Virus record (IMG/VR): IMGVR_UViG_3300027833_000028
Span: 1-64,000 of that record
Length of the DNA: 64,000 nucleotides
Reading direction: 5' to 3' (one strand)
Origin: a virus
Shown: positions 424 to 51,347 of the stretch, piece after piece
Layout: each line of letters starts with the position of its first letter
Numbering within the stretch: position 1 is the stretch's first letter
Notes under the pieces: model-generated
Database searches by the model: none
What the model saw: only the letters and a program-made list of their open reading frames with translations
Told to the model about the DNA's origin: nothing
Position numbers and translations under genes: made by a program

Positions 424-738
424 ATGATGACAGATTTTAAAACCAATGAAAATCTTCAAGACAAAGATCCAAAAATGTCTAAAGAAGAAATGGCAGCACG
501 TAGAGATGAAATTACTACATTCTACAAAGACAACATACCACATTTAGAAGTACAAGCAGATTATGAAACTCTTTTAGCTGCAATTGAAAAAGCTAGGGCA
601 GAGCGTATGCAAGCACAAATGTTTATGGCACAACAATATGCTGCACAAAAAGGTGAGGGAACTCCTGATCCTGAATCTCCAGAAGGAAAGGCATTTCAAG
701 ATGCAATGGCTAAAGCAATGACAAATGAAACAGCTTAA
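424..738 (+). CDS. Hypothetical helical/coiled-coil protein
   Basis: 104-aa ORF rich in A/E/Q/K, with an A-rich leader. Confidence 0.75.
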   Translation: MMTDFKTNENLQDKDPKMSKEEMAARRDEITTFYKDNIPHLEVQADYETLLAAIEKARAERMQAQMFMAQQYAAQKGEGTPDPESPEGKAFQDAMAKAMTNETA

Positions 739-4567: not shown

Positions 4568-4778
4568 AACTGCCTCTGGAATTATATTACCTGAAATGGC
4601 ACGTAAAAAAACTTTTCAAGGTGAAGTTGTAGGACGGGGAGATGAGGTAAAAGAAATTCAAATAGGAGATGTAGTGCAATATGCTGATCATGCAATGCCA
4701 ACACCAATGCAACATCATAATGAAGAACATTTATTATTGCAAGTAGGAGACGTATATGCTATCATAAGATATGAGTAG
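4500..4778 (+). CDS. groES: Co-chaperonin GroES (Cpn10)
   Basis: VPVGMKLLIK, mobile loop KTASGIILP, GEVVGRG, IQIGDVV, LLLQVGDVYAII. Start at ATG 4500 gives a typical 92 aa. Confidence 0.92.
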   Translation: MKNQVVVPVGMKLLIKEIKAETKTASGIILPEMARKKTFQGEVVGRGDEVKEIQIGDVVQYADHAMPTPMQHHNEEHLLLQVGDVYAIIRYE

Positions 4779-32989: not shown

Positions 32990-33664
32990 ATGGCAACAAT
33001 AGCAGACGTAGTATCTAGAATTAGAGGTCAAGTAAAAGCTGAAGTTCAAGATGCATTTACTACAGATAGATATATTTACAGTCTAATTGAAAAGTATGCT
33101 CAAGTTTTAATGAGAAGGCAAGACTATGCAAATAAATTAATGAAGTTTAATTCAGTATGGAAAACATTACCATATGTAGAATTGATTGACGTAGATAAAG
33201 TAGAAGCACATTGTGCTGGAATACAAAGCGGTTGTACAATAAAACGTACAAAACATAGATTACCTTCAATGTTTGAAGGTTACTGGGGCCCTCTAATACG
33301 TACCATTAGTTCAATAGATGGTTCACAAGAGTTACAAGGAACCCAACCTGGTACATATACTTCAATGACTAAAACAACATCTTTTAAATATAACAACACG
33401 TTATATTTTTGGTGGTTAGATGGATATATTTATTGTCCAAATATAGCATGGGATGCAATTAAAGTTGAAGGTGTATTTGATTCAGATATTACAAAATGGA
33501 ATTGTGACACAGAAGATGACTGTACACCTAGATATGAACAAGAAATTTACATACCTGAAGCATTGTTTGCTGAAATAGAAAGTCAAGTAATTCAGACTAT
33601 GGTAGGTACATTAAAAATACCATCTGATGATTCAGATAATAAACGTAACCTAGCAAGAACATAA
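32990..33664 (+). CDS. Tail ring protein (putative)
   Basis: 224 aa; synteny between the IHF-like and muzzle genes. Confidence 0.55.
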   Translation: MATIADVVSRIRGQVKAEVQDAFTTDRYIYSLIEKYAQVLMRRQDYANKLMKFNSVWKTLPYVELIDVDKVEAHCAGIQSGCTIKRTKHRLPSMFEGYWGPLIRTISSIDGSQELQGTQPGTYTSMTKTTSFKYNNTLYFWWLDGYIYCPNIAWDAIKVEGVFDSDITKWNCDTEDDCTPRYEQEIYIPEALFAEIESQVIQTMVGTLKIPSDDSDNKRNLART

Positions 33665-33674
33665 AACAATAACA

Positions 33675-34610
33675 ATGGGAGTATCACAAAAATATAGAAC
33701 ATTTAGTCAATTAATGGAAGACGTATCTATTGATTTTTCTAACTATGCGTTAGAAGGAATGATAGAACCTGCTCAATTGATAAAAGTTGCAACCAGAGTA
33801 AACTATGATTTGGGCTTAAAGATTCATAGAACTAAAGAAGTAGTAATAGATATTGAACACGGAAAAGGACAATTACCATTTGACTTTCAATATTTAAATT
33901 ATGCTTTTAAATGCGGAGAATATACAGTTAATAATACAATGCCTTCTGGCACTCATGTAGAAACTTTTAATGATGTACCCTATGTACCAGCGCCAGGTGA
34001 ATCAGCACCATGTGAAGATGGGGAAGCATGTAAAGATGTATGTGTTGTTAAAACATGTAATGATACAAATAGTTATCAATTAGTACAAAGAGTTGGGGCA
34101 GGTCAATTTAGAACATTCACAGATTGGACTGAGCTAAGAATTAAAAATGTTAATGATAAAGTTTGCTATTGTCCAAGTCTAGGAGCACAAGCCGTAGATA
34201 TAGCAGAAATTAAAGACGGTTTTTTAATTACAACTTTCCGTACAGGTAAAGTTTATTTGAGTTTTCAAGGAGCAATGGAAAATGCTGTTGGTGATTTACT
34301 AGTATTAGATCAACCATACTGTAATGAATATTATGAGTATGCACTAAAACAAAGAATATTAGAAAATATGGTTTGGAATGGTGAGAATGTTTCTCAGCAA
34401 TTAGGTTTAGTTGAAACAAGATTAAGAGCCGCTAGAAATAATGCATTAAGTTTTGTTAATACACCAGACTTTGCAGAAATGAGAAAGGTATGGACTATGA
34501 ATAGAAGAGCGCAGTATCATAATTATTACAATATGTTTTTAAGTTATGCCCCTGTCAATCCTAGAGTTGTTACAGGACCTTCTACATTAGGATCATCAAC
34601 ATCATATTAA
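33675..34610 (+). CDS. Tail tubular/ring protein (P22 gp4-like position)
   Basis: 311 aa; GQLPFDF and GKVYLSF...YEYALKQRILE; synteny. Confidence 0.55.
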   Translation: MGVSQKYRTFSQLMEDVSIDFSNYALEGMIEPAQLIKVATRVNYDLGLKIHRTKEVVIDIEHGKGQLPFDFQYLNYAFKCGEYTVNNTMPSGTHVETFNDVPYVPAPGESAPCEDGEACKDVCVVKTCNDTNSYQLVQRVGAGQFRTFTDWTELRIKNVNDKVCYCPSLGAQAVDIAEIKDGFLITTFRTGKVYLSFQGAMENAVGDLLVLDQPYCNEYYEYALKQRILENMVWNGENVSQQLGLVETRLRAARNNALSFVNTPDFAEMRKVWTMNRRAQYHNYYNMFLSYAPVNPRVVTGPSTLGSSTSY

Positions 34611-40600: not shown

Positions 40601-41143
40601 GATTTAATTTCTAACACTGGCCAATCAGTAAACACAGTAAGAAGCTTTGAATACCAATTAGAAACTTATGTATATAAAGGAGATCCACAATACAACATGT
40701 GTGGTGGTGATAAGTGGGAGGATTTAGATTTTAATTTTGATGCTTCCATTATATATAACAATGATCAGGTTTCAGGTTTATTAGTGTTAAATCCACAACC
40801 TGTAAATAACCCTTGGAATAATTTAACTTATCCAATAGTAAATCTAAATAGTATAGATGTATTAGTATCTAAAGTAGAACACAAATTTAGGTTTAATCAG
40901 TTTTGGGATATAACTAATGATAGAGGAGAATTTACAAATGTTGAGCAATCAATATTTAATACAGAGTCTAATGGTTATATTAGACCATTAAATACTCTTA
41001 ATTTAAATTATCAAAAATCACCTACACAACGTAAAAAGTTTAGACACTATTCTAATAATTTAATTTTACGTAGGAATGTATCAGGAAACAGAAAGATGTT
41101 ATTGAGATTAAATAATACTAAACTTTTACTATCACAAAGATAA
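34625..41143 (+). CDS. Tail stabilisation/muzzle protein with an inserted vWA domain
   Basis: N-terminal NSFTKGMNKD, VYWDDGNNPSR, FLRDEQYAFFIRW and WTVSYD...WISFHDW are typical of crAss-like muzzle (P22 gp10-like) proteins. MIDAS DVSGS at 39398-39412. Confidence 0.75.
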   Translation: MAKKKSSSPRGTQGQGSSSVNTNSFTKGMNKDVTPSFESKESWWHARNVANNSEDGDLGIIGNEPSNLLCGVIPYTVIGAIHRYGDEWIIYSTDNINSEIGTFDDSECKYTALVNDQCLNFNKKFLITGASKENFDCTWQVYWDDGNNPSRTLNIDKIPWKQEQITGPDINGSDCVEFADIIPRTLNCEKIRLAPLVDTPCVEITQSVDSGQVANGAYQAFIAYTENEQKIGDYIGISNIQTIFSHLGTNGSLDISVSNLDEKYDYYELVILRRNQGQTSAKKIGLYSTQQKQINIDYIDEALVAIDLVQIPLMSPAYEKSESMFVVNDWLIRQGPVEQFDFNYQPIANDIKVEWVTNSVPSNYYHKGGNKYNFLRDEQYAFFIRWIYNTGERSSSYHIPGRAPEVVDIGGVPYNEDQLFNGANVLNTIDGEKLFKVYNTATVESTAVSQLPDGSTITSRGKMGFWESTERYPNEPDIWGDLCGKFIRHHKMPTEETGPSVALSNTGNDLINLLGVQFNNIGRPKYNDGTYIPNVVGYELLKGSRLGAKSILGKGLFRNMRKYEVPNPEDLIGNGVQGLYPNHPYNDLRPDVYFQNGTNDKLTNGCDKFGDSITRFKPLGFAGIVNGEQSGYSQSVFTFSSPDLNFTKPFLNAYETRLYGQISGRSSGYFIPSEDHPKQKIIRGIAAFAAAIIGFGYAIHQLRGTTGRNATSNSTNLSSTTVKGEEIIGKRQGGGGGFVSLTVPPGVATVNLNNRNGGEISGGDFQGPWDDRFDDYIDAARDEAIRSGEDSGTLMNSSGTIDFAPESGAQGGFGLAGLADLYAGGSATDNAEQRNADDNAEEGAIPGVQSGKVETSKLKDTNISNLPRFLRVVTNILSMQTNIAIAGNEIIDGFYNSTDFRDYMWKYNSDGQFTDFTPVSSGLWRIKNEDSNYIGSSFQTFDNGKYKINNLFRPSTVAVSLSQNIDDPTVQDNSRFVVGGSVNADGTDNVHSDDYFISPGKDNPRSSNISGHYGALKFNFDNQYGQLSGIKQIPMRGCVELLDPEKPLAYLYSSQPIFAGDTFVGRYTEKNIMPIYTRYLLGQPDGFTFDYALYVNIPYPRYWMNSQRFDITNLARAISSLGLSGIFGGWDDIVPNDLYYLDRGENSCSDMFDASTWNGDDPNGFFEMRYAYGYTHTNGILDFYTESDVNLANRDWEDEPKKRIYEPYDYNDVDELFHAKIEKADNFYKYDDSLSPSKFPTQMTSFGLLQPLDYDPITAEECFVNYPKRLIYSLQAQEESKKDFWRVFLQNNYKDFKNDVSVIKPINKNGALIFFPHLSPQMFQGLDTLKTQLNTKLTIGDGGLFSQPFQNVANADLSNEYGSSESLRGVINTPLGLFFISQAQGKIFQYGGKGLDPISNQGMKWWFAKYLPSKFIKQFPNSEKSVWSDNPVAGVGCHVIYDSVDDIVYFMKKDYQLKPQYIAGAEFTNSITKPVTITLGTTLIPVDIGDPIYFDDCSWTVSYDPKAKAWISFHDWHPGLALPSINHFFTTNQFEDLDNPQCPPGYTFNPVNGLCEISINETELSEVTIDNVAATVTGGATNCLLDIVIAMDVSGSTTPAGPPQYIPMQFIGGNQVPGTGVMGDTQNSTAQLRWLDVFMNSPEVTTALAAGTMQIGTTMWADNSTQLLQGTVSMSNTATGASLCNLYTAAWPGGGGTDADNAIFGSGGINNPLGGNGGLAMLNNKAASSLSASYPARTQDPSFKQILIVVTDGTGGDQATQNPNGTPQYQSPLINSGTQPNPNTGNWASGANQSALIDLQDSQKQEIYAVYCGSTDPVPGTSALLDSISNSTYNVGIGPGPNQYAMAANNNNSLLLSATAIAGDVCSTPFVCECPTGYTLVYPDPTTSTYSSATGTCTDDPVERPICRKVECECPPATVPGTVITELGTCPDSAPLIYQIGDPNFVQTDPAQCNYFYYVSTQANYVYGGIWRHNVRCDSFANYYTTDYPWEIDLISNTGQSVNTVRSFEYQLETYVYKGDPQYNMCGGDKWEDLDFNFDASIIYNNDQVSGLLVLNPQPVNNPWNNLTYPIVNLNSIDVLVSKVEHKFRFNQFWDITNDRGEFTNVEQSIFNTESNGYIRPLNTLNLNYQKSPTQRKKFRHYSNNLILRRNVSGNRKMLLRLNNTKLLLSQR

Positions 41144-44100
41144 TGGCACATAAAAAAAGCACAGGACTTAAAGGAGGACCAAATGAATATATAACAGATA
41201 TATCTGAATTTGTTTCTATAGAAGGATATAAAAGAAATAGTCCTGATGTAAACAATCCGTACAACATTATTGAGTCAGGTAATATTACTATGGAAGGTGT
41301 AGACTTTCCTGTTAGGGGATATGGTAATAATGGTATGGTTCAGGATATGATACCAGGGGTAGAAAATTATGATTATGGTAATGCAGACTATGTTGTTGAA
41401 GTACCAATAGCAAAACGTGGTGGTGGATTACTAGACAAAACCATGAAGTGCAACAGCTGTAGTTGGGAATGGAAAGCTGCTGATGGTGGATCTGATATAG
41501 ACACATGTCACAAATGTGGAGGCAAAGCTTTACCAAAAGCCCAAAATGCAGGAGAAACAGGTAATGCTGTAGTATTTGTAGAATCACCTACAAGAGATAA
41601 ACATACATATGATCTTTATGATACTTCAAAGAAAAACTTACCTGCTGAATTATTACAATTTAAAGAAGACTTTAATTTTGGTGAGAGTATGCTTCAAGGT
41701 CTTTATGGTGATATGTCAAAAGAAAAACTTGATAATAAATATTTAAAGTTTTTAAATGGATTATATAAGGATTTATATAATCAAGAACGTCAATCTGACA
41801 TAGATGGTGAAGCTTCGGATCAAATACATGCACAACGAATGCAAGTTTATAAAGTTATACAAGGTGAAGAAAAGAAAATTGATCAGAAGTATGAAGAAGA
41901 GATTGACCTTTATGGTCAAATGGTAAACCTTGGTCAGGAAAGTTTTAATAATAGTGAGTTGAATCCAAGGACTATATCAATGGATTCTACGTTTTACAAA
42001 GAAGCGGAGAATCTTAAAAAAGTTTATGCAAGGCTACATCCAAATTCTAATGTTGATATAGTTCCTATATATGATAACCCTGATTTAGTGAGAGATAAAG
42101 TTGCTGGGTTAAATCCAAATGATTCAATGTATTTTTTTGGTCATAGTGGAGATAGGATGGGTGGTATACCAAATGAAGAAATAGCAACTATTTTAGGAGG
42201 CTCTAAAGCAGAGAATTGTTATTTGGGTACTTGTGAATTAGAAGGGCAAGAACTACAACCATTTCAAGAAGCTCTACAAGGAAAGAATCTTCAATATAGA
42301 CCTGCAGGTTCTTGGTGGGGAGTAAACCCAAGTGGAAGTTCAATAGAAGATGCTATGTGGTCTAGAGTTACTAAAGATTGGTCAGACCCTCTTGGTACAG
42401 GACGAACTGCAACAGTAGTAAAACCTAAATTAGGAAAAGATTATAATAAAGAACAAGACGGTGGACAACCCACACAACCTGAAACATGGCAAGATACAAT
42501 TAACTATATTGATCAAGAAAAATTAAAAAGAGCAATTGCTCAGGCAGAAAGTTTAAATGGTAAACTTATGAAAAACCCTGACTCAACTGCTTCTGGATTA
42601 TATGGTCAACGTTTTTCAGAATTACAAAAGGGTAAATTATATGATGGCACAAGAGATGAGTTTATAGCTGATTTAGATGCACAGAATAGGATGTTTGATG
42701 TTAGACTTAATGAAGGTTTTAAATCAAATAAGACTACACCTTTATTAAAGGACGCATATGATTTAATGAATGAGTATAAACCTCAGATTGAAAACTTTGA
42801 TTTCTCTTATGAGGACATTATATCTTTATCTAATTTTTTAGGCAGACAAGGTGCAAGAGAGTATTTAGGAAATGTAATTAGAGATGGTAAAACTTTACAA
42901 GATGTATATCCTAAGTTATATGGAGACTCTGTTGAGCAAGCAAATAAAACACCTGAAGAATATTTAAATATAACAAGAGGGTATTATAAACAATATGCTG
43001 GTGAAATAAATGAAGTTGTTCAAGACAACACAAGAGTTGCTCCACGTATTATTAGAGACTTACCTGACTTAGGATTTCAACCTCAAAGTCCATTGCAACA
43101 ATTTTTAATTGATGCTGAGTCAGAATTAGATTTATTAAATATAAATAATAGAACAGTAGCTCAAGATAATACTGCTGTTACCAGACGGTTTGAACCACCA
43201 ATTAATATTGGCGATAGCAGAGCAATAGTTGATTATGACCAAATTGTAGGTGATATCCGTCAAGAAAATGATTTAGAAGAGTCATTATATGATAGTCCTG
43301 CATTGATTGCAGAGTTTATTAGGAAATCAAATGAGTATGCATCAGGGTGGAAAGATATGACAGATGCATCTGATGCAGAAGTAAGAGATCTACAAAATGT
43401 TTTATTAGGTAAAGGTTATGGTATTGGACCAACAGGTGCTGATGGTGATTATGGAACAAAAACATTAGCAGCTCATAGAGCTATGGTAGATGATACAAAT
43501 CTAAATCCATCAGCAATATCAAGATATTATAATAAATTTAATTTAGATAATAAACAAGAAGTAATGGGTATTCAGAAAATTCTTGTTGATAAAGGATTTT
43601 TAGCTCCTACATTAATTGGTAAACAGTCAACTAGTATTGATGGCAAATTTGGTAATCAAACTAAAGATGCATTGGATGCATTTAATACAGAGAATGCTGA
43701 AGATGATCCTCAAGCTCTTGTTTTTGATTATATACCAAGTACATTAGAAGAGCCTAGATGTGCGGCAGGTATGTGTCAGATATTAGAAGGAAACCAAGTT
43801 TTAACAGATGCACTGGGTGTTAAGTTTAAAGATGCTTGGGACATATTTGAAAATATGACTGAGTCTAAAAACAGTGATAGTATATTTAATATATATGATG
43901 ATAAAGCATTTGATAATGTTAGTTCAGTAGAAGATTTAAAAAGAATTACAAAAAAAGTAAAAAGAAAAAAACAAACAACAGAGAGTGATTATGAAATTGG
44001 AGATATTGTAGGTTTGTACTGGGATGGTTCATCTCATCATAATGAAACATTAAGTTCAAAAACACATAATACTCATAGTGGTTTTGTGTCAGATATAGTT

Positions 44101-45270
44101 GATGGTGTACCTATTATAACTCATAATGTAAATGGTAATGTTAGACAACAACCTTATAATGAATTGGTAACAGCATGGATTAGAAGACCTAATGAAAACT
44201 TAGATATCAAATCTCAATATAATGTAGATGGTATTGAAGAGATGCAATTTGACTCAAGTGGAATTCAAAATTTAGCTTTTAGATATTCTGGAACTGATGT
44301 TGATGATAAAGTTGTATATGAGGGAGAAAGACTTGAGCAACTTGAAAATATATTTAAAAGAGTACAATTTAATGCTAATAAAATACCAAAAATATTAAAT
44401 TCTTCTGTAGATAGTAAATGGTTAGAGTCAACTGTAGTTGGTATAACTGGAGTTGAGACAGGAGTTGGGAAAACTGTTCCAAGAACTGTAGAAGATTATG
44501 GTAGACTTAGAAACTTGGTGTATGATGCTAAGGGTAAAAAAGATGAAGATGTTTCATTGGGTATTGGTAAAACTAAATTTAATTCATTAGATAGTTTTGC
44601 AAAAGAATATTTTGACATAAAGTCTGTAGATGATTTAGCAGAAGACAATAAAGGTATTGATGCAGTTACATATATGATTACAAAAAATTATGAACTCTTT
44701 AAAGATTATTCTAAGACATATCCTCAATTAGGTTTAACAGAAACGGATATAAGAAATATGACTATATTATCATACAACCAAGGAGCCAGTAGATTATTAA
44801 AAACTGGACGTGTAGATGATAATAGAAGTGCACAAGAAGAGGTAGATGCTTTAAGAGAACTATATGATGCTACTTTACTGGACATTAGTTCAACTAATTA
44901 TAAACATGTACCTCTTGTAGCTGATGCTGCTTTTAAAGTAGGTCAAATGATACCAGAATTTTTGCCTGGATCTGTAAGACCATCTGATTCCTATATTAAA
45001 AAAGTAAATCAATATAGAGCAGATGTATTTCCAGAAACATTTGCTTCTGTAGAAGAAGATATTTCCCCTTTTGAGATGTCATCTATGGCGCAGGGAGGTG
45101 AGTATGGTGTATATAATAATTATATATCCGGTAAATATGATGGTACCAGTAGAGAAAAGGGTGCTATGGAATTATATGACAAATTAAATAGAAAGCATTA
45201 TCAAGAAGCAAAACAAACAGGTATGAGTGTTCCTAATTACATTATGAGTCAACTTATAAAAGATTCTTAA
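41143..45270 (+). CDS. Modular virion cargo protein: Zn ribbon, caspase-fold protease, two lysozyme/SLT-like domains, two PG-binding domains, NlpC/P60-CHAP-like amidase
   Basis: CNSC...CHKC; YFFGHSG...CYLGTC; AIAQAES...STASGLYGQ; two LQ..L..KG...DG.[YF]G..T units; RCAAG...GDIVG...THSGFV...ITHN; GVET...SLGIG...SYNQG...YIKKV. Confidence 0.75.
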   Translation: MAHKKSTGLKGGPNEYITDISEFVSIEGYKRNSPDVNNPYNIIESGNITMEGVDFPVRGYGNNGMVQDMIPGVENYDYGNADYVVEVPIAKRGGGLLDKTMKCNSCSWEWKAADGGSDIDTCHKCGGKALPKAQNAGETGNAVVFVESPTRDKHTYDLYDTSKKNLPAELLQFKEDFNFGESMLQGLYGDMSKEKLDNKYLKFLNGLYKDLYNQERQSDIDGEASDQIHAQRMQVYKVIQGEEKKIDQKYEEEIDLYGQMVNLGQESFNNSELNPRTISMDSTFYKEAENLKKVYARLHPNSNVDIVPIYDNPDLVRDKVAGLNPNDSMYFFGHSGDRMGGIPNEEIATILGGSKAENCYLGTCELEGQELQPFQEALQGKNLQYRPAGSWWGVNPSGSSIEDAMWSRVTKDWSDPLGTGRTATVVKPKLGKDYNKEQDGGQPTQPETWQDTINYIDQEKLKRAIAQAESLNGKLMKNPDSTASGLYGQRFSELQKGKLYDGTRDEFIADLDAQNRMFDVRLNEGFKSNKTTPLLKDAYDLMNEYKPQIENFDFSYEDIISLSNFLGRQGAREYLGNVIRDGKTLQDVYPKLYGDSVEQANKTPEEYLNITRGYYKQYAGEINEVVQDNTRVAPRIIRDLPDLGFQPQSPLQQFLIDAESELDLLNINNRTVAQDNTAVTRRFEPPINIGDSRAIVDYDQIVGDIRQENDLEESLYDSPALIAEFIRKSNEYASGWKDMTDASDAEVRDLQNVLLGKGYGIGPTGADGDYGTKTLAAHRAMVDDTNLNPSAISRYYNKFNLDNKQEVMGIQKILVDKGFLAPTLIGKQSTSIDGKFGNQTKDALDAFNTENAEDDPQALVFDYIPSTLEEPRCAAGMCQILEGNQVLTDALGVKFKDAWDIFENMTESKNSDSIFNIYDDKAFDNVSSVEDLKRITKKVKRKKQTTESDYEIGDIVGLYWDGSSHHNETLSSKTHNTHSGFVSDIVDGVPIITHNVNGNVRQQPYNELVTAWIRRPNENLDIKSQYNVDGIEEMQFDSSGIQNLAFRYSGTDVDDKVVYEGERLEQLENIFKRVQFNANKIPKILNSSVDSKWLESTVVGITGVETGVGKTVPRTVEDYGRLRNLVYDAKGKKDEDVSLGIGKTKFNSLDSFAKEYFDIKSVDDLAEDNKGIDAVTYMITKNYELFKDYSKTYPQLGLTETDIRNMTILSYNQGASRLLKTGRVDDNRSAQEEVDALRELYDATLLDISSTNYKHVPLVADAAFKVGQMIPEFLPGSVRPSDSYIKKVNQYRADVFPETFASVEEDISPFEMSSMAQGGEYGVYNNYISGKYDGTSREKGAMELYDKLNRKHYQEAKQTGMSVPNYIMSQLIKDS

Positions 45271-45300
45271 ACCCTAAAGATTAGTGAATCTCCTTAATTA

Positions 45301-45312
45301 TTTGTATATTAA
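45301..45312 (+). promoter_or_regulatory. Recurrent promoter-like motif (TTTGTATATTAA)
   Basis: Intergenic, 18 nt before GTG 45331. Confidence 0.55.
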
Positions 45313-45330
45313 TAATATAATATTATCAAC

Positions 45331-48300
45331 GTGGATTTAAACAAAAAAAGTGTAAAACAACAAGGTGGTGCTATGATACCTCAACAACCAGGCATGCAAC
45401 AACAGCCGCAAGTTGATCCTCAAGTTATGCAAATAACTGAGGTATTTTCTCAATCTATGGGACAAGGTAAAGAACCACAAGAAATAGTAATGGGTTTAAT
45501 GGAACAGCAGGTTGATCAAAACCTTATAGGCCAAGCTCTTATGACTATGGGATATGAGCAAGAAATGGTAGTGCAATTATTTAAACAAATTGCAGAATCA
45601 CAAAGACCTCAATCACCAAGTCCACAAGAGATAACAAATAATCCACAACAGTTAGCTAGAGCAGAAGAAATGCAAAAAGAAGCTCCAGCTATGAATATGA
45701 ATATTGATCCTATTGATATGGCTAAATCTGGTATAGAAATTAAACCAGAAAACAAAGGTAAGTTTACAGCATGGGCTAAATCACGTGGTATGAGCGTTAA
45801 GGAGGCTGCTAACAAGGTTATGGCAAATCCTAAGAGATACCCTCCATCTGTAGTAAAGATGGCTAATTTTGCAAAGAACGCAGCTGGATTTAAAAAACAA
45901 CCCGGTGGTGCAGTAACTCAAAATGATACTAATGATATTGAAATTCAAATAGCACTACTGCAACAACAAGCTGCAATTGCAAAAGCACAAGCAGAGCATG
46001 CTGCTAAAATGGAGTTGTTAGAAGATCCATCAATGTCTAGAACTATAACTCCAGAAAGAAAGATAGAGATGGAGGAAATAGGTAAACTTGATGCTATTAA
46101 TGAGTCAATGTATAGAACCCTAACTCCACAAAGACAATTTGAACAGGACTACATAAACTACACAGAAAAAAATGGTCCAATATCCGTCCAAGATTATAGT
46201 AAACTAACTGGTATGGATGCGTCAATGTATAGAACTATAACTCCTGAAAGACAACTTGAAGATGATATTATAAAAAAACAAGGTGGTGAATTTAAACCAC
46301 ACTTTATGTACAAAGGTAAAAGAAAGATAAGAGCTAAAGATTTGGCTACCCACCTTAGACTGAAGAAAGCTGGTTATAATCATAAAGCTCCAAAGGCCCA
46401 AACTGGTGGAGAAGGTATGTATGATACACCTATGTCAGATAGAACACCGGGTGCATATGCACCAAAAATGTATACAGGTGGTAATGTTCCAATTGGTTTT
46501 AATCCAGATCCAAAAGTACAAGCTGAATTAGAAAAGAAGTTTGGTGATAATCCTATGGCTAATCAACTTAATGATTTTTTAAAACTAACAGCAAACGGTA
46601 AACAAAATAAATTAATAGATCAAAAGGATAATGGTTATGTGGCACCAAACCCAATGTATTTTAATCCAGCAATGTTTGGAGATATGGATGTTAATGTTGC
46701 AGATATTATAAATACTACATCTAGCGTTGTTGGTGACTTGTTTGGGGAAGAAGGATCAATTTCAAACTTTGGTGAGAACAGCGCAAATGATAAATTAAGA
46801 AAGCTTACCAATTCATCTTATGATGTTAAAGCAGATTTATCTCCAGAAAATCAACAAGCATTTCAAGATTATGTTACGCAATTTAAATATGAAAATCCTG
46901 AAAAAGATATACTAGGTAATCTAGTAGAGGAATCAGAAAAAATTGCAAGTGAAATTTCTACAGAAAACATTGATCTAAAAGATCCTCAAATATTAAAATT
47001 TCTTAAGATGTCTACTAAGAACATGTCTAAGAAAGGTCAAGAATTATATGATCAACTCAAACTTAAATTTTTTCCAGATGGTGTACCTGATGTAGAAGTT
47101 GAAGAGACTGAAGAAGTTACAGAAGAAGGTACTACTAATGTTAAATATGGAGGTTCTCCTTTCTTACCAAAGGCACAGTTTAATATTCCAGACTTTATGT
47201 ATGGCAAACAAGATGCTGAGTATGATATGACCGGTGGAGGTTTTAATCCTTACACAGATGATTTAGGTGAGTTTATGAGTAATGCTGGTCAAACTAATTA
47301 TAGGGAAGATACTGAATTAGTAGATAGAGCTGCTATTGATGCAGGTACATATGGTAATAGAACACAGGACCCAACACAATCATCTGCACCACTAGATACT
47401 GAATATGACAAAGATGGAGATGGAATACCAGATATGATAGATATTGATGGTGGTAATGGAACAGGTGAAGGATTTCCAGGTACAGCAGGAAGCCCATCTG
47501 CAGATGAATTAAGAAGTAGGATAAATAAACCTACAGTAAAAAGAAATAGAAATCCTTTGGCTGCAGCAGAAAACATGTTTAACACAGCAGGTGCTGGGGT
47601 TTTTGCTGATATATCTAATGGTATTTATCAAGGTACTAGAATAGCAAATGATATAGGTGATGCTAAAAGAGCAAGACAAGCTGAGTATGATTTAAAAACT
47701 GTAGATACCATAGCTGATAATACATATGGTGTTATGACAGATATGAATTTTAAACGTGGTAAAGGTGAGTTAGTAAATCCAGGTGGTTTTGGTAGTGAAG
47801 GTGATAGAACTACTGGACTATACATGGATACAGCTAAAGAAGGTGGAGGTGTAAATAATGCAGGATTTAAAGCATTACCCCCAGCAGTACAACAAAAAAT
47901 ATTAAAATCCTTACAGGTTGGAGGAGGTGCAGGAGGCACAGCAGCTATTGATACAGCTGCAATTCTAAAAGGTTTACCATATGATTTTATGTCTACAAGT
48001 ATGGGCAAGCAGCTTTTAAATGTACAACCAGATACAGCAACTGATATTATGGATGTATATCGTAAAGCTCAAAACATTAGTAGCTTAAGTGATGGTCTTG
48101 ATTTCTTTACATCTGTAAGTAAAAAGGACATTAAAAATGTAATGAATGAGTCAGGTATAGATAAATACACTGTTAGAGATTATGTGAAAAACCAAGATTT
48201 TTATAATGATGCTAGTTGGGCAACCCAACAAGCTATAAAACTAGCAATGAAAACTAAAGGTTTAAAACAAGGTGGGGAAACAGTAAACGTAGATTCAAGA

Positions 48301-48348
48301 ATGTTGGCAAAATTAATTGCAGCCGGAGCTGATATAGAAAAATTATAA
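45331..48348 (+). CDS. Modular virion cargo protein (GTG start) made of many short modules separated by KxQxGG-like motifs
   Basis: 1005 aa; Q/M/P-rich N-terminus; about 10 motif copies. Confidence 0.7.
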   Translation: MDLNKKSVKQQGGAMIPQQPGMQQQPQVDPQVMQITEVFSQSMGQGKEPQEIVMGLMEQQVDQNLIGQALMTMGYEQEMVVQLFKQIAESQRPQSPSPQEITNNPQQLARAEEMQKEAPAMNMNIDPIDMAKSGIEIKPENKGKFTAWAKSRGMSVKEAANKVMANPKRYPPSVVKMANFAKNAAGFKKQPGGAVTQNDTNDIEIQIALLQQQAAIAKAQAEHAAKMELLEDPSMSRTITPERKIEMEEIGKLDAINESMYRTLTPQRQFEQDYINYTEKNGPISVQDYSKLTGMDASMYRTITPERQLEDDIIKKQGGEFKPHFMYKGKRKIRAKDLATHLRLKKAGYNHKAPKAQTGGEGMYDTPMSDRTPGAYAPKMYTGGNVPIGFNPDPKVQAELEKKFGDNPMANQLNDFLKLTANGKQNKLIDQKDNGYVAPNPMYFNPAMFGDMDVNVADIINTTSSVVGDLFGEEGSISNFGENSANDKLRKLTNSSYDVKADLSPENQQAFQDYVTQFKYENPEKDILGNLVEESEKIASEISTENIDLKDPQILKFLKMSTKNMSKKGQELYDQLKLKFFPDGVPDVEVEETEEVTEEGTTNVKYGGSPFLPKAQFNIPDFMYGKQDAEYDMTGGGFNPYTDDLGEFMSNAGQTNYREDTELVDRAAIDAGTYGNRTQDPTQSSAPLDTEYDKDGDGIPDMIDIDGGNGTGEGFPGTAGSPSADELRSRINKPTVKRNRNPLAAAENMFNTAGAGVFADISNGIYQGTRIANDIGDAKRARQAEYDLKTVDTIADNTYGVMTDMNFKRGKGELVNPGGFGSEGDRTTGLYMDTAKEGGGVNNAGFKALPPAVQQKILKSLQVGGGAGGTAAIDTAAILKGLPYDFMSTSMGKQLLNVQPDTATDIMDVYRKAQNISSLSDGLDFFTSVSKKDIKNVMNESGIDKYTVRDYVKNQDFYNDASWATQQAIKLAMKTKGLKQGGETVNVDSRMLAKLIAAGADIEKL

Positions 48349-48350
48349 TT

Positions 48351-51347
48351 ATGGCAAAAATTAAAATAAATAAATTACCTGAAGGTTTTAGTATCCGCAA
48401 CGGAGAAGTTGTTGAAGATACAAAGTCCATGCAAGAAGGTGGTATGACAACGGGTGATCAAGCTGATTATGGCTTAGTTACAACTCCACAGGCATATTAT
48501 GGTGATACTAATTTTAACAATTCAAGAGACGAATCTGTTAGATATAGTTTATCAAGTGTACCTAGAGAAGATGCTAATTTAGAAGCAGAAGGTGGAGAAA
48601 CAGTATTAACTGATTTAAATGATGATGGTACTTTTGGTTTATATGACATTGTAGGACCAAGACATGGTAGCGGTGGTGTACCAATGTTTTTACCTGAGCA
48701 ATCTTTTGTTTTTTCTGACACACGTAAATTAAAATTATCAAAAGATGAAATGTCAGAATTTGGTATGGGCGGAAGTAGAAAAACGCCAGCTAAAGTTTCT
48801 AAGAAATTTGGTTTGCAAGATTACTATGGGGAATTAAACTCACAGTATTCTGATGATATATCTGCCACTAGTGCAGAATTAATGTTAAAGAAAAATATGA
48901 ATGATCTTTCTAGATTAGCATTTATGCAAGAAGCAAAGAAAGAATTTTCTGATGGTGTACCATTAGCATCTCATCCATATTTAGTTTCTATAGGAGAGGA
49001 CCCAATAGAGTTTACAGCTAAGATAGAAGAAATATCTAGAAAAGAAGCAGAAGCAAAAGCATTACAAGCTTTGCCACTAGAGCAACAGCAACAGTTAATG
49101 ATGATGCAGCAAATGATGGCTCAACAAGAACAGCAACAAGGTATGCAACAACAAGGTATGCCTGCACCAATGGATGCATTTATGCCTCCAGCAGGTGAAC
49201 CAGGCTTAGCTATGGAAAATAATGCTATGTTAGATACTGCTAGATTTGGTACAGAGCTGGGAGATTTTATACAGAAAGCACAAGAAGGTAATGGTGAGAA
49301 AAAAGAAACTTATACTTTAAATAGACAACCAGCTACTAGAGCAGAATATTATGATTATATGATTAGACATAATATGCATAGAAATTTTGATGGTTCTGTT
49401 CAGCCAAAATTTTTAGATCAGTTAACTGCAGGAGAAAAATATTTATATGGTAAAGCATTAACTAAGATTGATGATTATGATCCAATGAGCATAACAGAAT
49501 CTAATGACGGTGATCTCTCACTTACTGAAGAAGAATTTGCTGTACAGTTTCCTGAAGATGTAGAAGGTTTTGTAGGTCCTACACAAACTAATGTAGAAAA
49601 AGCACAAAACAATCAGGTTTCTAAAACAGAGATGCCAGTAACTAAGAAAGAAACTGATAAAGTTGAGGATAATAAAAATCCATTTAAAGCAGGTACTGCG
49701 GATGCTATAGAGTTTGATCAAAATATTATGGATGGTTATAGCCCTGTTGTAGTAAAAAACGAGAGTGGTAAAAGTATAATTAGGTTTATTAAACCTGCGT
49801 CAGATGAAAGAAAAGATACAAGACAAAGTAGAACTAAAGGAGAAATTTCTGAAGGTGATATAGTAGGTACTGGTAATAGGACAGATGTATACACAGATGA
49901 GGTACAGGAACAACAAAAGATAACAGATGCATCTGGAATAGCATCTTTTATACCTGGTATGTATGATTTAGCAAAACTACCTGATGAACAGCTTGGAGCT
50001 GATGAATTTGGCTATGGTTCATCATTATTTTCTAGTGAAGAAGCAGAAGAAGATTTCATGTATAGAAATCAATCTATTGTTGATGAGTTAGGACCTGAGT
50101 GGAAGTACAATTATCCAAAATCTGATAAAAAAGGTTATGATAAAAACTGGAGAGATTTCCAAAATAAATATGAGGAGAAAAGAAGAGATTACTTTAAAAA
50201 GAAAGGTCTTCCATATATACCATATTTCTTTAATGATGAATCTTTAAAGCAAGCTTTTGCTGATAGTCCAGAAACCTATGATAAAGACGGTGATGGTAAA
50301 ATAGATGCGGAATGGAAAAAAAGAAAGTTTGATGGAATGAGAGGTGGTTATACTGCCAATGCTCCAGGTTTTGATATTGACTATAGTCCGGAAGATATAA
50401 GAGAGATGTCATTACCAGAAGAAACACCAACAATAAAAACACCTGGGGTAAAAGAGTATGATGGTTACCCAGCACAATGGTGGGCTCAAGACATTAATAA
50501 TCTTAATACTGTTGGGGCTATAAAGGATACTTTACGTTTACCATATGCTCCTGAACTAGAGGATCAAAAAATTGATTATGTACTTGATGATTATACAGGA
50601 AGAGTAAATGCTAATACATCAGCATTAAATACTATGGCAGGTGCATTAGGTGCATATGGACCACAAGCTCTTGCAAGAAGTAATGTATTTGGAAAAACAT
50701 TAGATGCTAATGCTAAAGCAATTAATCAAGTAAATAGCAATAATGTTAGAACAATGAATCAAGTTGCTACAATGCAACCTCAGTTAAACATGAAAGTTGA
50801 TATGACTAACAATGCTACTAATAAGCAATTGTATGATGACACAATAACAGCACTACAACAAAAAGATAATTTTACTAACTGGAGAACAGGTAAGTACAAT
50901 GAATTATTTAATGCTGGATTAACTAATTTAGCTAATACATATAACTTAAATACAATTAATCCTAATATGAATGTCAATCCAAATCAATTTGGTATGATTG
51001 AATTTACCGAAGATGGTAGAAAATTATATAAAGATGGAGATACTGATATAGCATTACAAAGAGCACAACAATTTCAAAGAGCTCAGCGGTTGATTGGAGA
51101 AGATAGTGATGGTAAACAAAGACCTGTAACAAAAGAATATTTAGAATTTTTGTATCCTAATAGTGCAACAACAAAAACAAGTAGGGCTAACCAAACTAGA
51201 GGACAATATGATCTGGAAAACAATGGTTTGCCTCCTGGCTATCAACAACCAATTGCACAATCAAAAATGGGTAGTGAAAAGAAAAAAGACAAAACCAGTT
51301 TATCAAAGTGGGCAGTGCCGTTTTACACAGGTAAGATAGGTATGTAA
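48351..51347 (+). CDS. Virion cargo protein
   Basis: 998 aa; NLEAEGGETV and GPRHGSGGV motifs, Q/M-rich linker, N-rich helical C-terminus. Confidence 0.7.
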   Translation: MAKIKINKLPEGFSIRNGEVVEDTKSMQEGGMTTGDQADYGLVTTPQAYYGDTNFNNSRDESVRYSLSSVPREDANLEAEGGETVLTDLNDDGTFGLYDIVGPRHGSGGVPMFLPEQSFVFSDTRKLKLSKDEMSEFGMGGSRKTPAKVSKKFGLQDYYGELNSQYSDDISATSAELMLKKNMNDLSRLAFMQEAKKEFSDGVPLASHPYLVSIGEDPIEFTAKIEEISRKEAEAKALQALPLEQQQQLMMMQQMMAQQEQQQGMQQQGMPAPMDAFMPPAGEPGLAMENNAMLDTARFGTELGDFIQKAQEGNGEKKETYTLNRQPATRAEYYDYMIRHNMHRNFDGSVQPKFLDQLTAGEKYLYGKALTKIDDYDPMSITESNDGDLSLTEEEFAVQFPEDVEGFVGPTQTNVEKAQNNQVSKTEMPVTKKETDKVEDNKNPFKAGTADAIEFDQNIMDGYSPVVVKNESGKSIIRFIKPASDERKDTRQSRTKGEISEGDIVGTGNRTDVYTDEVQEQQKITDASGIASFIPGMYDLAKLPDEQLGADEFGYGSSLFSSEEAEEDFMYRNQSIVDELGPEWKYNYPKSDKKGYDKNWRDFQNKYEEKRRDYFKKKGLPYIPYFFNDESLKQAFADSPETYDKDGDGKIDAEWKKRKFDGMRGGYTANAPGFDIDYSPEDIREMSLPEETPTIKTPGVKEYDGYPAQWWAQDINNLNTVGAIKDTLRLPYAPELEDQKIDYVLDDYTGRVNANTSALNTMAGALGAYGPQALARSNVFGKTLDANAKAINQVNSNNVRTMNQVATMQPQLNMKVDMTNNATNKQLYDDTITALQQKDNFTNWRTGKYNELFNAGLTNLANTYNLNTINPNMNVNPNQFGMIEFTEDGRKLYKDGDTDIALQRAQQFQRAQRLIGEDSDGKQRPVTKEYLEFLYPNSATTKTSRANQTRGQYDLENNGLPPGYQQPIAQSKMGSEKKKDKTSLSKWAVPFYTGKIGM

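What the first reader, a model, noticed from the sequence alone, without database searches (positions are those of the whole stretch)
41407..51275. Repeated KAQxGG-like motif punctuates three cargo proteins at module boundaries: candidate phage polyprotein or cargo-tagging system
Seen: about 18 copies of a degenerate x-[AMKLVES]-[QKR]-x-[GA]-G motif. ORF 41143: IAKRGG 41407, KAQNAG 41536, KEQDGG 42448, YKQYAG 42985, SMAQGG 45082. ORF 45331: VKQQGG 45352, MAKSG 45718, KKQPGG 45892, IKKQGG 46270, KAQTGG 46393, KMYTGG 46465, NVKYGG 47137, KAQFN 47170, TAKEGG 47830, SLQVGG 47908, GLKQGG 48259. ORF 48351: SMQEGG 48426, TARFGT 49236, KAQEGN 49275, QSKMGS 51258 (the last few are weak). Where domains are recognisable, the motifs sit at their edges: they bracket the Zn ribbon, the protease, the first lysozyme domain and the PG-hydrolase block. 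Codons differ between copies, so conservation is at protein level. Known: ASFV pS273R and adenovirus protease mature virion proteins at Gly-Gly sites. Inference: these genes encode polyproteins cut into independent injected effectors, or the motif is a multivalent capsid-loading tag that lets modules be shuffled freely. I do not know of a description of this in crAss-like phages.
Basis: partly seen in the sequence, partly recalled or inferred. Interest (0 to 1): 0.88.

Follow-up and report, generated by a model that had tools for sequence, protein, structure and literature searches.

The report
Gly-Gly junction motif in phage cargo

Summary
All 20 listed peptides are in frame at the stated coordinates. 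Against composition-matched shuffles, [QKR]-x-G-G is enriched in ORF 45331 (8 vs 1.4, P<=0.001) and ORF 41143 (5 vs 1.3, P=0.011). It is not enriched in ORF 48351, which has one conserved N-terminal copy.

Hundreds of metagenomic homologues keep the motif. In 50 syntenic loci it runs at 4.0x and 2.9x expectation in these two families and about 1x in the neighbouring muzzle and ORF51407 families. Homology breakpoints and indel cassettes fall on it, and it sits in low-confidence linkers.

ORF 45331 is a homologue of crAss001 cargo protein C1 (gp45). C1 relatives in other lineages are also GG-rich, with different flanking residues.

Cleavage is not supported. Pfam models of three Gly-Gly-directed protease families find nothing. 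The embedded MARTX-CPD-like module is absent from five complete related genomes that keep the motif. In crAss001, three GG sites lie inside a resolved gp45 domain.

Best reading (0.45): an uncut helix-stop/Gly-Gly/helix-start junction that separates docking or folding modules in thread-like ejected proteins. A cut site or a specific docking tag remains possible.

This scan reached the same conclusion on at least eight other genomes.

The parts
32990..34610 (+). Context: tail ring proteins R2 (32990-33664) and R1 (33675-34610). These are followed by the 2172-aa muzzle-like gene (34625-41143), which sets the crAss-type gene order ring-ring-muzzle-cargo.
   Evidence: Pfam CrAss_Ring_2 E=1.3e-18 and CrAss_Ring_1 E=1.3e-4 (below cut-off). 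The same gene order is kept in the listed related loci.
41143..45270 (+). ORF 41143 (1375 aa), a polyvalent cargo protein. It has a conserved N-terminal ~90 aa, exchangeable modules in the middle and a conserved C-terminal ~56 aa.
   Evidence: Homologues share the first ~90-140 aa at 60-80% identity. After that they carry varying sets of LysM, SLT, YkuD, PG_binding_1 and ART-PolyVal (PF18760) domains. PG_binding_1 lies at residues 805-847.
41152..41178 (+). N-terminal end tag KKSTGLKGG (residues 4-12) of ORF 41143.
   Evidence: G[LV]xGGP occurs within the first 30 residues in 114 of 120 homologues and is never internal. Pro follows the GG.
41407..41553 (+). Zn-ribbon cassette (Cys103/106/122/125) bracketed by IAKRGG (41407-41424) and KAQNAG (41536-41553).
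   Evidence: In homologues the same cassette, with its two flanking copies, sits at different distances from the N-terminus (residues ~90, ~186, ~268, ~361, ~465).
41554..42447 (+). Clan-CD-like (MARTX/TcdA CPD-like) cysteine-protease module. His334 (42142), Cys359 (42217) and Cys364 (42232) are invariant. It is followed by KEQDGG (42448-42465).
   Evidence: AF2 mean pLDDT 79, with flanks below 50. Best structural match is the V. cholerae RtxA CPD 3fzy (Z 10.0, rmsd 3.4, 139 residues aligned); TcdA CPD gives Z 8.5. SAVED-CHAT, caspase-6 and legumain also appear, but unrelated flavodoxin-like folds score as high. Invariant residues. The module is sporadic among relatives.
45082..45267 (+). SMAQGG (45082-45099) followed by the conserved C-terminal tail of ORF 41143 (...NYIMSQLIKDS).
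   Evidence: Consensus of alignment A1. The end peptide NY[IV]M[ST] is terminal in 94 sequences and internal in 1.
45331..48348 (+). ORF 45331 (1005 aa, GTG start), a homologue of crAss001 cargo protein 1 (gp45). It is mostly disordered and is the main carrier of the motif.
   Evidence: hhalign of A2 against gp45: E=9.5e-6, 45% identity over 64 columns (residues 128-199 against gp45 367-438). AF2 mean pLDDT 42. 705 homologues found.
45352..45369 (+). VKQQGG, the N-terminal copy of ORF 45331, part of the end tag (N)KKSVKQQGG.
   Evidence: Present at residue ~10 in nearly all homologues listed. Terminal in 140 sequences and never internal.
45718..45909 (+). The small domain KGKFTAW...NFAKNAAGF (phrog_20603) with its two flanking copies, MAKSG (45718) and KKQPGG (45892).
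   Evidence: PHROG E=5.8e-8. crAss001 gp45 has the same arrangement: IAKDGG - KNKGKFTAY...NARNWNAFGG.
46024..46274 (+). Three copies of the SM[SY]RT[IL]TP[EQ]R repeat. They lie inside a cassette that is present only in close relatives and is bounded by KKQPGG and IKKQGG (46270-46287).
   Evidence: DNA repeat families D1 and D2. The cassette is absent or has a different copy number in homologues; where it is absent the two flanking copies collapse into one, WKKEEGG|EF.
46393..47925 (+). Internal copies of ORF 45331: KAQTGG 46393, KMYTGG 46465, NVKYGG 47137, TAKEGG 47830, SLQVGG 47908.
   Evidence: G607, G838 and G839 are invariant in a 19-sequence alignment reaching down to 42% identity. All five lie in pLDDT<50 stretches.
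48259..48345 (+). GLKQGG followed by the conserved C-terminal tail ETVNVDSRMLAKLIAAGADIEKL.
   Evidence: Residues 992-1003 are invariant. The tail is terminal in 135 sequences and internal in 1.
48351..51347 (+). ORF 48351 (998 aa), the third cargo-cluster protein. It has one good copy, SMQEGG at 48426-48443 (residues 26-31).
   Evidence: No enrichment: 1 observed, 1.0 expected. The copy M-[KRQ]-x-G-G after MAKIKINKLPxGF is kept in almost all of the ~40 relatives listed, and G30/G31 are invariant.

Best explanation
The motif (bulky or Ala/Lys residue, Lys/Gln, any residue, Gly-Gly, then mostly Glu/Ser) is an uncut junction element of crAss-type cargo (ejection) proteins. It ends one small folding or docking unit, gives a flexible Gly-Gly break and starts the next unit.

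ORF 45331 is the counterpart of crAss001 cargo protein C1. In crAss001, C1 is reported with one domain on the portal and a helical segment in the tail barrel, and the authors infer a continuous chain bridging the two. ORF 41143 uses the same junction to string exchangeable cell-wall-attacking and other modules between a fixed N-terminal tag and a fixed C-terminal tag.

Shown here:
- The motif is enriched and conserved.
- It sits at module and indel boundaries and in low-confidence linkers.
- The Gly-Gly is kept across lineages while the flanking residues change.
- The end peptides are strictly terminal.

Inferred:
- The chain stays intact in the virion.
- The junctions let the protein be stored extended and threaded out through the tail.
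- The junctions make cassettes swappable without harming their neighbours.
- The copies next to the protein ends belong to docking handles.
For: 1. Family-level enrichment. Observed/expected [QKR]xGG in 50 syntenic loci is 4.0 for C1-like and 2.9 for ORF41143-like proteins. It is 0.9 for both the muzzle-like and ORF51407-like families.

2. Boundaries. HSP ends are 3.5-4.4 times enriched within 5 aa of a copy. Cassettes are flanked by two copies, and one cassette sits behind different junctions in different homologues. Copies lie 2-5 aa upstream of LysM domains.

3. Flanking residues fit helix ends. K/Q at -2 is 46% against 14% background. Glu follows GG in 46% and 32% of contexts against 7% background, with Ser/Thr/Ala/Asp also common; Pro is 2-3% against 5%. 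Positive residues at a helix C-terminus, Gly at the cap and acidic or Ser/Thr residues at the next N-terminus are the textbook helix-dipole and capping preferences. In the AF2 model of ORF 45331, five of nine copies lie between two predicted elements, each within 10 residues.

4. The Gly-Gly is old and the flanks are lineage-specific. C1-like proteins have 10.6-23.8 GG per 1000 aa, against 3.2-7.2 in the controls. Distant lineages prefer F/Y/W/M at -3 (45% vs 12%) and a hydrophobic residue at +2 (61% vs 27%) rather than K/Q at -2.

5. crAss001 precedent. The gp45 segments reported as resolved are 214-245 (tail barrel) and 425-552 (portal-bound domain). The first starts just after AYGG (209-210). 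The second starts at AFGG (427-428) and also contains the GG at 434 and 447, so those sites lie within one modelled domain.

6. No processing enzyme travels with the motif.
Against: - A plain hinge does not need the degree of conservation seen: invariant Gly at four copies and a six-fold Glu preference after GG.
- It also does not explain why some sub-lineages use nearly uniform copies, for example [KQ]-[EN]-G-G-S-L. That uniformity suggests one shared reader, either a protease or a binding site.
- A conserved 72-aa protein made of little more than three copies is hard to explain as a hinge.
- AF2 gives no confident local structure at the copies.
- No data on virion proteins exist for this clade, so 'uncut' is extrapolated from crAss001. 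There the GG sites known to be intact lie inside a folded domain, not in linkers.
- The published crAss001 tryptic peptides (79-101, 181-190, 275-300, 307-320) span no GG site.
Confidence: 0.45

Rival explanations
1. Cleavage sites. The cargo proteins are polyproteins, and a phage or host protease cuts after or within the Gly-Gly. This removes short N-terminal leaders and releases modules in the head or after ejection, as in T4, phiKZ and SPN3US head maturation or MARTX toxin autoprocessing.
For: - The motif lies in disordered linkers at module edges.
- All three proteins have a copy within the first 12-31 residues, like a cleavable leader.
- Pro is depleted and Glu/Ser preferred right after GG, which resembles a P1' preference.
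- The shape of the motif recalls Gly-Gly-directed viral cysteine proteases: adenain (M/I/L)XGG|X and ASFV pS273R GG|X (established knowledge).
- Iyer et al. 2017 predict that polyvalent proteins are processed into single units by an embedded peptidase (PMC5512222).
- ORF 41143 carries a CPD-like module flanked by copies.
Against: - No C48, C39 or C5 match in the record.
- No prohead protease in Pfam or PHROGs scans.
- The CPD-like module is in 1 of 80 loci and is missing from five complete genomes that keep the motif.
- The N-terminal tag of the ORF 41143 family has Pro after GG in 114 of 120 proteins.
- Up to ~30 GG sites per C1-like protein in other lineages.
- In crAss001 gp45 the GG sites at 427, 434 and 447 lie inside one resolved domain, and the authors model the protein as a continuous chain.
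- The hydrophobic residue sits one position further from the GG than in the adenain consensus.
Confidence: 0.2
2. Multivalent docking or loading tag. Each copy is a short linear motif read by one shared partner, such as the portal, tail-barrel rings, muzzle, inner capsid face or an assembly chaperone. This would load any module that carries the tag into the particle or hold it in the cargo zones.
For: - The end peptides are conserved and strictly terminal, and the N-terminal tags of ORF 41143 and ORF 45331 resemble each other (KKSTGLKGG and KKSVKQQGG).
- Some sub-lineages use nearly uniform copies.
- A conserved 72-aa protein consists of three copies.
- In crAss001, short gp45 segments bind the tail rings and a short fragment binds the muzzle (PMC10172136).
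Against: - The register of K/Q differs between the two cargo proteins of one genome (L053: K/Q at -1 in the C1-like protein, at -2 in its neighbour).
- The flanks drift freely between lineages while only the GG stays.
- In crAss001 the resolved tail-barrel segment begins after the GG and does not include it.
- No partner has been identified.
Confidence: 0.25
3. Chance or composition: a degenerate pattern that turns up by chance in Lys/Gln/Gly-rich proteins.
For:
- Seven of the 20 listed copies are not Gly-Gly.
- ORF 48351 shows no enrichment.
Against: - Shuffle tests give P<=0.001 for ORF 45331.
- Enrichment of 4.0x and 2.9x over composition repeats across 46 proteins of each family.
- Individual copies are conserved in position down to ~42% identity.
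Confidence: 0.03

Closest known systems
Cargo protein 1 (C1, gp45) of Bacteroides phage crAss001 (Bayfield et al. 2023, PMC10172136; PDB 7QOG chain M and related entries)
   Same: - The gene follows the ring, ring and muzzle genes. Here ORF 41143 lies between the muzzle gene and the C1 homologue.
- It shares the small domain KGKFTA[WY]...NA..W with a GG on each side (hhalign E=9.5e-6).
- It is GG-rich (20 GG in 842 aa).
- The chain is mostly unresolved or disordered, with small structured islands.
   Different: - The flanks differ: [AS]-[FY]-G-G in gp45 against [KQ]-x-G-G-E here.
- There is no Pfam crAss_CARG1 (portal-bound domain) match in ORF 45331 or 18 relatives.
- ORF 45331 has no glycine-zipper hydrophobic stretch like the one in gp45.
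- The authors did not describe a motif.
Polyvalent proteins of phages and conjugative elements (Iyer, Burroughs, Anand, de Souza, Aravind 2017, PMC5512222)
   Same: - ORF 41143 and its relatives put many unrelated effector-type domains into one virion-associated polypeptide (LysM, SLT, YkuD, PG-binding, ART-PolyVal, peptidase).
- The paper predicts processing into single units by an embedded peptidase.
   Different: - The peptidase here is clan-CD-like, not the zincin-like MPTase, and it is sporadic.
- The paper describes no junction motif; the words 'glycine' and 'linker' do not occur in it.
Head-maturation proteolysis of ejected or internal proteins: T4 gp21 (L/I-x-E|), phiKZ gp175 and SPN3US gp245 (A/S/G-x-E|) (PMC10052503, PMC7411985)
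   Same: - A short degenerate motif recurs in packaged, ejected proteins.
- Some copies sit near the N-terminus, like leader or targeting peptides.
   Different: - The motif is different.
- No prohead protease was found here.
- No cleavage data exist.
MARTX / TcdA-TcdB cysteine protease domains (MEROPS C80)
   Same: - The module in ORF 41143 is the best structural match to 3fzy (Z 10.0), and to 3ho6 at Z 8.5.
- It has an invariant His and Cys after consecutive strands.
- It sits inside a multi-effector protein, between disordered linkers.
   Different: - Unrelated flavodoxin-like folds score as high, and Foldseek finds nothing significant.
- The His-Cys spacing is 25-30 residues.
- C80 enzymes cut after Leu and need inositol hexakisphosphate.
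- The module is missing from most relatives that carry the motif.
Gly-Gly-directed viral cysteine proteases: adenain, ASFV pS273R, Ulp/SENP (clan CE)
   Same: Substrate sites end in G-G and have a hydrophobic residue a few positions upstream.
   Different: - No clan-CE domain was detected.
- The hydrophobic residue is at P5 rather than P4.
- Glu is strongly preferred after the GG.
- The N-terminal copy of ORF 41143 has Pro after the GG.

Membership tests
crAss-type cargo protein C1 (gp45 family) | Gene lies downstream of the tail ring and muzzle genes, in the cargo cluster ahead of the virion RNA polymerase genes | tested here: met
   R2 and R1 Pfam matches at 32990-34610, muzzle-like gene 34625-41143, then ORFs 41143, 45331, 48351 and 51407 and the 4599-aa giant ORF. 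The order is conserved in the listed loci.
crAss-type cargo protein C1 (gp45 family) | Sequence homology to gp45 | tested here: met
   hhalign of A2 against gp45: probability 83%, E=9.5e-6, 64 columns, 45% identity. The match covers only one small domain.
crAss-type cargo protein C1 (gp45 family) | Portal-bound domain (Pfam PF25725 crAss_CARG1) | tested here: inconclusive
   No match in ORF 45331 or 18 relatives at E<=1. One distant C1-like protein (L057) gives a weak match, E=0.014.
Polyvalent proteins (Iyer et al. 2017) | Two to 15 unrelated effector-type domains in one polypeptide of a phage or plasmid | tested here: met
   The ORF 41143 family carries LysM, SLT, YkuD, PG_binding_1, ART-PolyVal (PF18760) and the protease-like module in varying combinations.
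Polyvalent proteins (Iyer et al. 2017) | Embedded zincin-like MPTase that processes the protein | tested here: not met
   No such domain in ORF 41143 by Pfam. The embedded peptidase-like module is clan-CD-like and sporadic. Processing itself cannot be tested here.
Gly-Gly-directed polyprotein processing (adenain / pS273R / Ulp type, or C39 double-glycine leader peptidases) | A protease of that family is encoded by the virus | tested here: inconclusive
   Six-frame searches of the 88.6-kb record with Peptidase_C48, C39 and C5 found nothing at E<=1. The record is only 77% complete, and divergent proteases could escape these models.
Gly-Gly-directed polyprotein processing (adenain / pS273R / Ulp type, or C39 double-glycine leader peptidases) | Substrates are cut at the motif | not testable with these tools
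   This needs virion proteomics. Indirect evidence argues against it: GG sites lie inside a resolved crAss001 gp45 domain.
Prohead-protease maturation of ejection proteins (T4 / phiKZ / SPN3US type) | Prohead protease gene in the head module, and an x-x-Glu| type site | tested here: not met
   No protease family appears in Pfam or PHROGs scans of the ORFs around the portal and major capsid protein genes. That absence alone is inconclusive. The motif itself is different (Gly-Gly, with Glu after it rather than before the cut).
C80 cysteine protease domains (MARTX, TcdA/B), for the module at 41554-42447 | Caspase-like fold with a His...Cys dyad after adjacent strands | tested here: inconclusive
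   Best VIA-align match is 3fzy, Z 10.0, rmsd 3.4, 139 residues aligned. Unrelated alpha/beta folds tie within 1 Z, and Foldseek's best E-value is 0.06. His334, Cys359 and Cys364 are invariant in 17 sequences.
C80 cysteine protease domains (MARTX, TcdA/B), for the module at 41554-42447 | The module travels with the sites it is supposed to cut | tested here: not met
   Found in 1 of 80 loci and absent from 5 of 5 complete related genomes whose cargo proteins carry the motif.

The most novel reading that the evidence does not exclude
The Gly-Gly peptide is a shared code of Crassvirales-type phages, read by one still unidentified component. That component could be a new Gly-Gly-directed maturation protease or a docking site in the portal-tail channel. 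The code would decide which proteins are loaded, in what order they leave the particle, and where they are separated. Any module that carries the tag could then be recruited as injected cargo.
Probability: 0.2. Interest if true: 0.8.

Novelty: new variant of a known kind. Interest (0 to 1): 0.5.

Why it matters
[quoted passage not shown] How they load and eject megadaltons of protein cargo is an open question.

A short junction peptide that is conserved from marine lineages to crAss001 would be useful in three ways:
- It would give a handle for finding cargo proteins in metagenomes.
- It would help predict where modules can be exchanged.
- It would allow direct tests (proteomics, mutagenesis, tagging) of whether cargo is cut, docked or simply hinged.

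If the junction is an ordinary linker signature, its value is mainly for annotation.

Tried and rejected
- tblastn of ORF 41143 and ORF 45331 against 50,697 cultured-phage records found no match. megablast of the region also found nothing. The nearest cultured portal is Leptolyngbya phage Lbo-JY46 at 31% identity, followed by crAss-like and Cellulophaga phages.
I used IMG/VR loci instead.
- Foldseek of the protease-like model against the PDB found nothing at E<=0.001.
- A profile of the C1-like alignment against PDB sequences did not reach gp45, because the shared stretch is too short. gp45 itself is in the PDB as 7QOG chain M.
- Pfam scans for a known repeat family (RHS/YD, cell-wall-binding and similar) in six distant C1-like proteins found none.
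- Complex prediction of the C-terminal tail of ORF 45331 (residues 940-1005) with the N-terminal 100 residues of ORF 48351 returned no verdict (score 0.03, controls not run). This tested the idea that cargo proteins dock head to tail. The result says nothing either way.
- I looked for fused or split forms in which the end peptides become internal and found essentially none.
- A DNA-level repeat as the source of the motif is rejected.
- The embedded protease as the enzyme that reads the motif is rejected as a general explanation.
- Closeness of the ORF 45331 copies to confidence-island edges was not significant (P=0.10).
Full report
**What the window is.** All large genes lie on the + strand. 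PHROGs identifies the large terminase (4771-6960), portal (6971-9721) and major head protein (11233-12852). Pfam identifies crAss-type tail ring proteins R2 (32990-33664, E=1.3e-18) and, weakly, R1 (33675-34610).

These are followed by a 2172-aa muzzle-like virion protein (34625-41143). After it come ORF 41143, ORF 45331, ORF 48351, ORF 51407 and a giant ORF that runs to 68490 in the 88.6-kb record (4599 aa). The portal is 31% identical to that of Leptolyngbya phage Lbo-JY46 and 22-28% identical to crAss-like and Cellulophaga phages. The three target proteins have no tblastn match in cultured phages but hundreds in marine and other metagenomes. The record is 77% complete by CheckV; complete relatives are 114-118 kb.

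Results for the strict form [QKR]-x-G-G against 1000 residue shuffles per protein:

| Protein | Observed | Expected | P |
|---|---|---|---|
| ORF 45331 | 8 | 1.4 | <=0.001 |
| ORF 41143 | 5 | 1.3 | 0.011 |
| ORF 48351 | 1 | 1.0 | 0.65 |

- The three ORFs together have 4.1 copies per 1000 aa against 0.8 in the other 25,019 residues of the record (Fisher P=1.5e-5).
- In ORF 45331, 8 of 13 GG dipeptides have K/Q/R at -2. In the rest of the proteome it is 19 of 145.
- Of the five hits in ORF 41143, two are one overlapping site, one lies in the Zn ribbon (HKCGG) and one in the core of the protease-like module (DRMGG).
- No DNA repeat links the copies.

**Conservation.** Homologues of ORF 45331 keep SVKQQGG at residue ~10 and KGLKQGGET about 25 residues before the end. 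The number of internal KAQxGG, KMQxGG and KEGGEF copies varies. In a 19-sequence alignment reaching 42% identity, G318, G607, G838, G839 and G981 are invariant, while the mean column identity is 43%.

The ORF 41143 family keeps the first ~90-140 residues and then varies freely in domain content. Its linkers carry copies such as KKLKKGGGI, GQFQNGGSL, FIYKEGGDL and DKLQEGGEY. ORF 48351 relatives all keep M-[KRQ]-x-G-G at residues ~27-31.

In 50 syntenic IMG/VR loci the ratio of observed to composition-expected copies is as follows:

| Family | Observed/expected |
|---|---|
| C1-like (ORF 45331) | 4.0 |
| ORF 41143-like | 2.9 |
| Giant ORF, N-terminal part | 1.6 |
| ORF 48351-like | 1.5 |
| Muzzle-like | 0.9 |
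| ORF 51407-like | 0.9 |

**Position at module boundaries.**
- In all-against-all BLASTP within each family, internal ends of homology lie within 5 residues of a copy in 15-17% of cases, against 4% for random positions. Part of this may be alignments extending into the shared motif, and the sequences are related to one another.
- The alignment shows concrete cases. The segment between FKKQPGG and IIKKQGG|EF of ORF 45331 is an insert found only in close relatives; elsewhere the two copies are one (WKKEEGG|EF). One homologue has an extra cassette, GG|EAAYLANRDRVIKREMAKAQGGG|E, before the C-terminal tail. The unit GG|EFKPH[FM]MY follows a different GG junction in P0109.
- In six ORF 41143-like proteins, copies sit 2-5 residues before LysM domains, with only one hit inside a domain.
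- The AF2 model of ORF 41143 residues 119-448 is confident in the core (mean pLDDT 79) and below 50 in both tails, which hold KAQNAG and KEQDGG.
- The AF2 model of ORF 45331 is mostly low confidence (mean pLDDT 42). All nine copies lie in stretches below 50 (chance 0.03). Their closeness to the edges of confident islands is not significant (P=0.10).

**What ORF 45331 is.** Its residues 128-199 match crAss001 gp45 residues 367-438 (hhalign E=9.5e-6, 45% identity). The shared small domain (KGKFTA[WY]...NA..W, phrog_20603) has a GG-type copy on both sides in both phages: MAKSG / KKQPGG here, IAKDGG / NAFGG in gp45.

gp45 is cargo protein 1 of crAss001. Residues 425-552 form a portal-bound domain inside the capsid. 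Residues 214-245 are a helical segment bound in 12 copies to the tail-barrel rings. A further short helix sits at the muzzle. The authors model the protein as one chain reaching through the portal (PMC10172136).

gp45 has 20 GG in 842 residues, often as [AS]-[FY]-G-G. The 214-245 segment starts just after AYGG (209-210). The 425-552 domain starts at AFGG (427-428) and contains the GG at 434 and 447. C1-like proteins of more distant lineages have up to ~30 GG sites and prefer F/Y/W/M at -3 (45% vs 12% background) and a hydrophobic residue two positions after GG (61% vs 27%). The clade of this window prefers K/Q at -2 (46% vs 14%).

The Gly-Gly punctuation is therefore an old hallmark of the C1 family, and its flanks vary by lineage.

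**The protease question.** The module at 41554-42447 has invariant His334, Cys359 and Cys364. Its model is closest to the MARTX cysteine protease domain (3fzy: Z 10.0, rmsd 3.4, 139 residues aligned) and to the TcdA domain (Z 8.5). SAVED-CHAT, caspase-6 and legumain also appear. Unrelated flavodoxin-like folds score equally well, and Foldseek finds nothing significant. It is plausibly a clan-CD protease, which would make ORF 41143 a phage analogue of self-processing multi-effector toxins.

It cannot be the general reader of the motif, for two reasons:
- It occurs in 1 of 80 loci and about 21 of 120 homologues.
- It is absent from five 100%-complete related genomes whose cargo proteins carry the motif.

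Searches of the record with Peptidase_C48, C39 and C5 found nothing. Pfam and PHROGs found no prohead protease among the virion genes.

**Reading the flanks.** After [KQ]-x-G-G the next residue is Glu in 46% (C1-like) and 32% (ORF 41143-like) of distinct contexts, against ~7% background. Ser, Thr, Ala and Asp are the next most common. Pro is 2-3% against 5%.

Lys/Gln before a Gly, and Glu/Ser/Thr/Asp after it, match textbook preferences for the C-terminal end of one helix and the N-terminal cap of the next. In the ORF 45331 model, helices end 3 residues before two copies and 7 residues before a third, and elements start 3-6 residues after several copies. This is the basis for my preferred reading: a stop/break/start junction that insulates small units in a protein that has to be stored extended and threaded through the tail.

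The same numbers would also fit a P1' preference of a protease, so they do not settle the matter.

**End tags.** The start peptides (GLxGGPN; KKSVKQxGG; KIKINKLP) and end peptides (NYIM[ST]...; GADIExL) of the three families are terminal in 48-159 sequences each and internal in at most one. The N-terminal tags of ORF 41143 and ORF 45331 resemble each other (KKSTGLKGG and KKSVKQQGG). The ORF 41143 tag has Pro after the GG in 114 of 120 proteins, which argues against cutting there by a ubiquitin-like-specific protease. These tags fit docking handles, by analogy with the gp45 segments in the tail.

**Verdict.** The motif is real, conserved and, as far as the searched literature goes, undescribed. 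The cleavage mechanism is not supported by anything testable here, and several indirect results count against it. A docking role remains open.

My confidences are:
- Uncut junction or hinge, with the terminal copies part of docking handles: 0.45.
- Specific docking or loading tag: 0.25.
- Cleavage site: 0.20.
- Chance: 0.03.

Earlier follow-ups of this scan on at least eight other genomes reached the same open verdict. New here:
- The embedded protease-like module is absent from five complete relatives.
- Glu is preferred after the Gly-Gly.
- One cassette sits behind different junctions in different homologues.
- A conserved 72-aa protein consists of three copies.

Noticed in passing
G000:C1:78836-79054 (outside the window; L082:4560-4778): A 72-aa basic protein made of little more than three motif copies (LMRTGGEL, KMRKGGDA, YKLGGW). 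It lies upstream of a tail-fibre-like gene and a holin gene. It is conserved in 5 of 5 complete related genomes, and the Gly-Gly is kept at all but one site in one of the five genomes.
   Followed up: partly
G000:C1:80798-81028 (outside the window; L082:6522-6752): A 76-aa ORF with QYGKGGT at its N-terminus and RELRQGGSS near its C-terminus, just after the holin-like gene (phrog_3427). It was not checked in relatives.
   Followed up: no
window 41554-42447: A clan-CD-like cysteine protease module with invariant His334, Cys359 and Cys364. Its best structural match is the MARTX toxin CPD (3fzy, Z 10.0). It behaves as a mobile cassette, found at positions from residue ~100 to ~1870 in different homologues, and is always followed about 100 residues after the His by a Gly-Gly copy.
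   Followed up: partly
window 46024-46274: Three copies of an SM[SY]RT[IL]TP[EQ]R peptide repeat in ORF 45331, also visible as DNA repeats. The copy number differs among homologues that are 92-98% identical.
   Followed up: partly
window 41143-45270, 45331-48348, 48351-51347: Each of the three cargo-cluster proteins has a conserved N-terminal and a conserved C-terminal peptide that is (almost) never found internally in more than 300 related sequences. The interior of ORF 41143 and ORF 45331 is highly variable.
   Followed up: yes
window 45751-45894; L083:13086-13300 (crAss001 gp45): A ~50-residue domain, KGKFTA[WY]...A.FA.NA..W (phrog_20603), is the most widely conserved part of C1-like cargo proteins. 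It is also hit in many otherwise unrelated phage contigs (loci L051-L080). Its function is unknown, and it is not resolved in the crAss001 maps.
   Followed up: partly
window 725-1648: A separate PG_binding_1 + Amidase_2 protein (a likely endolysin) is encoded far from the cargo cluster. The cell-wall-related domains in ORF 41143 are therefore probably for entry, not lysis.
   Followed up: no
whole record: The record is 88.6 kb and 77% complete by CheckV. Complete relatives with terminal repeats are 114-118 kb. Absence of a gene from this record is therefore weak evidence.
   Followed up: partly
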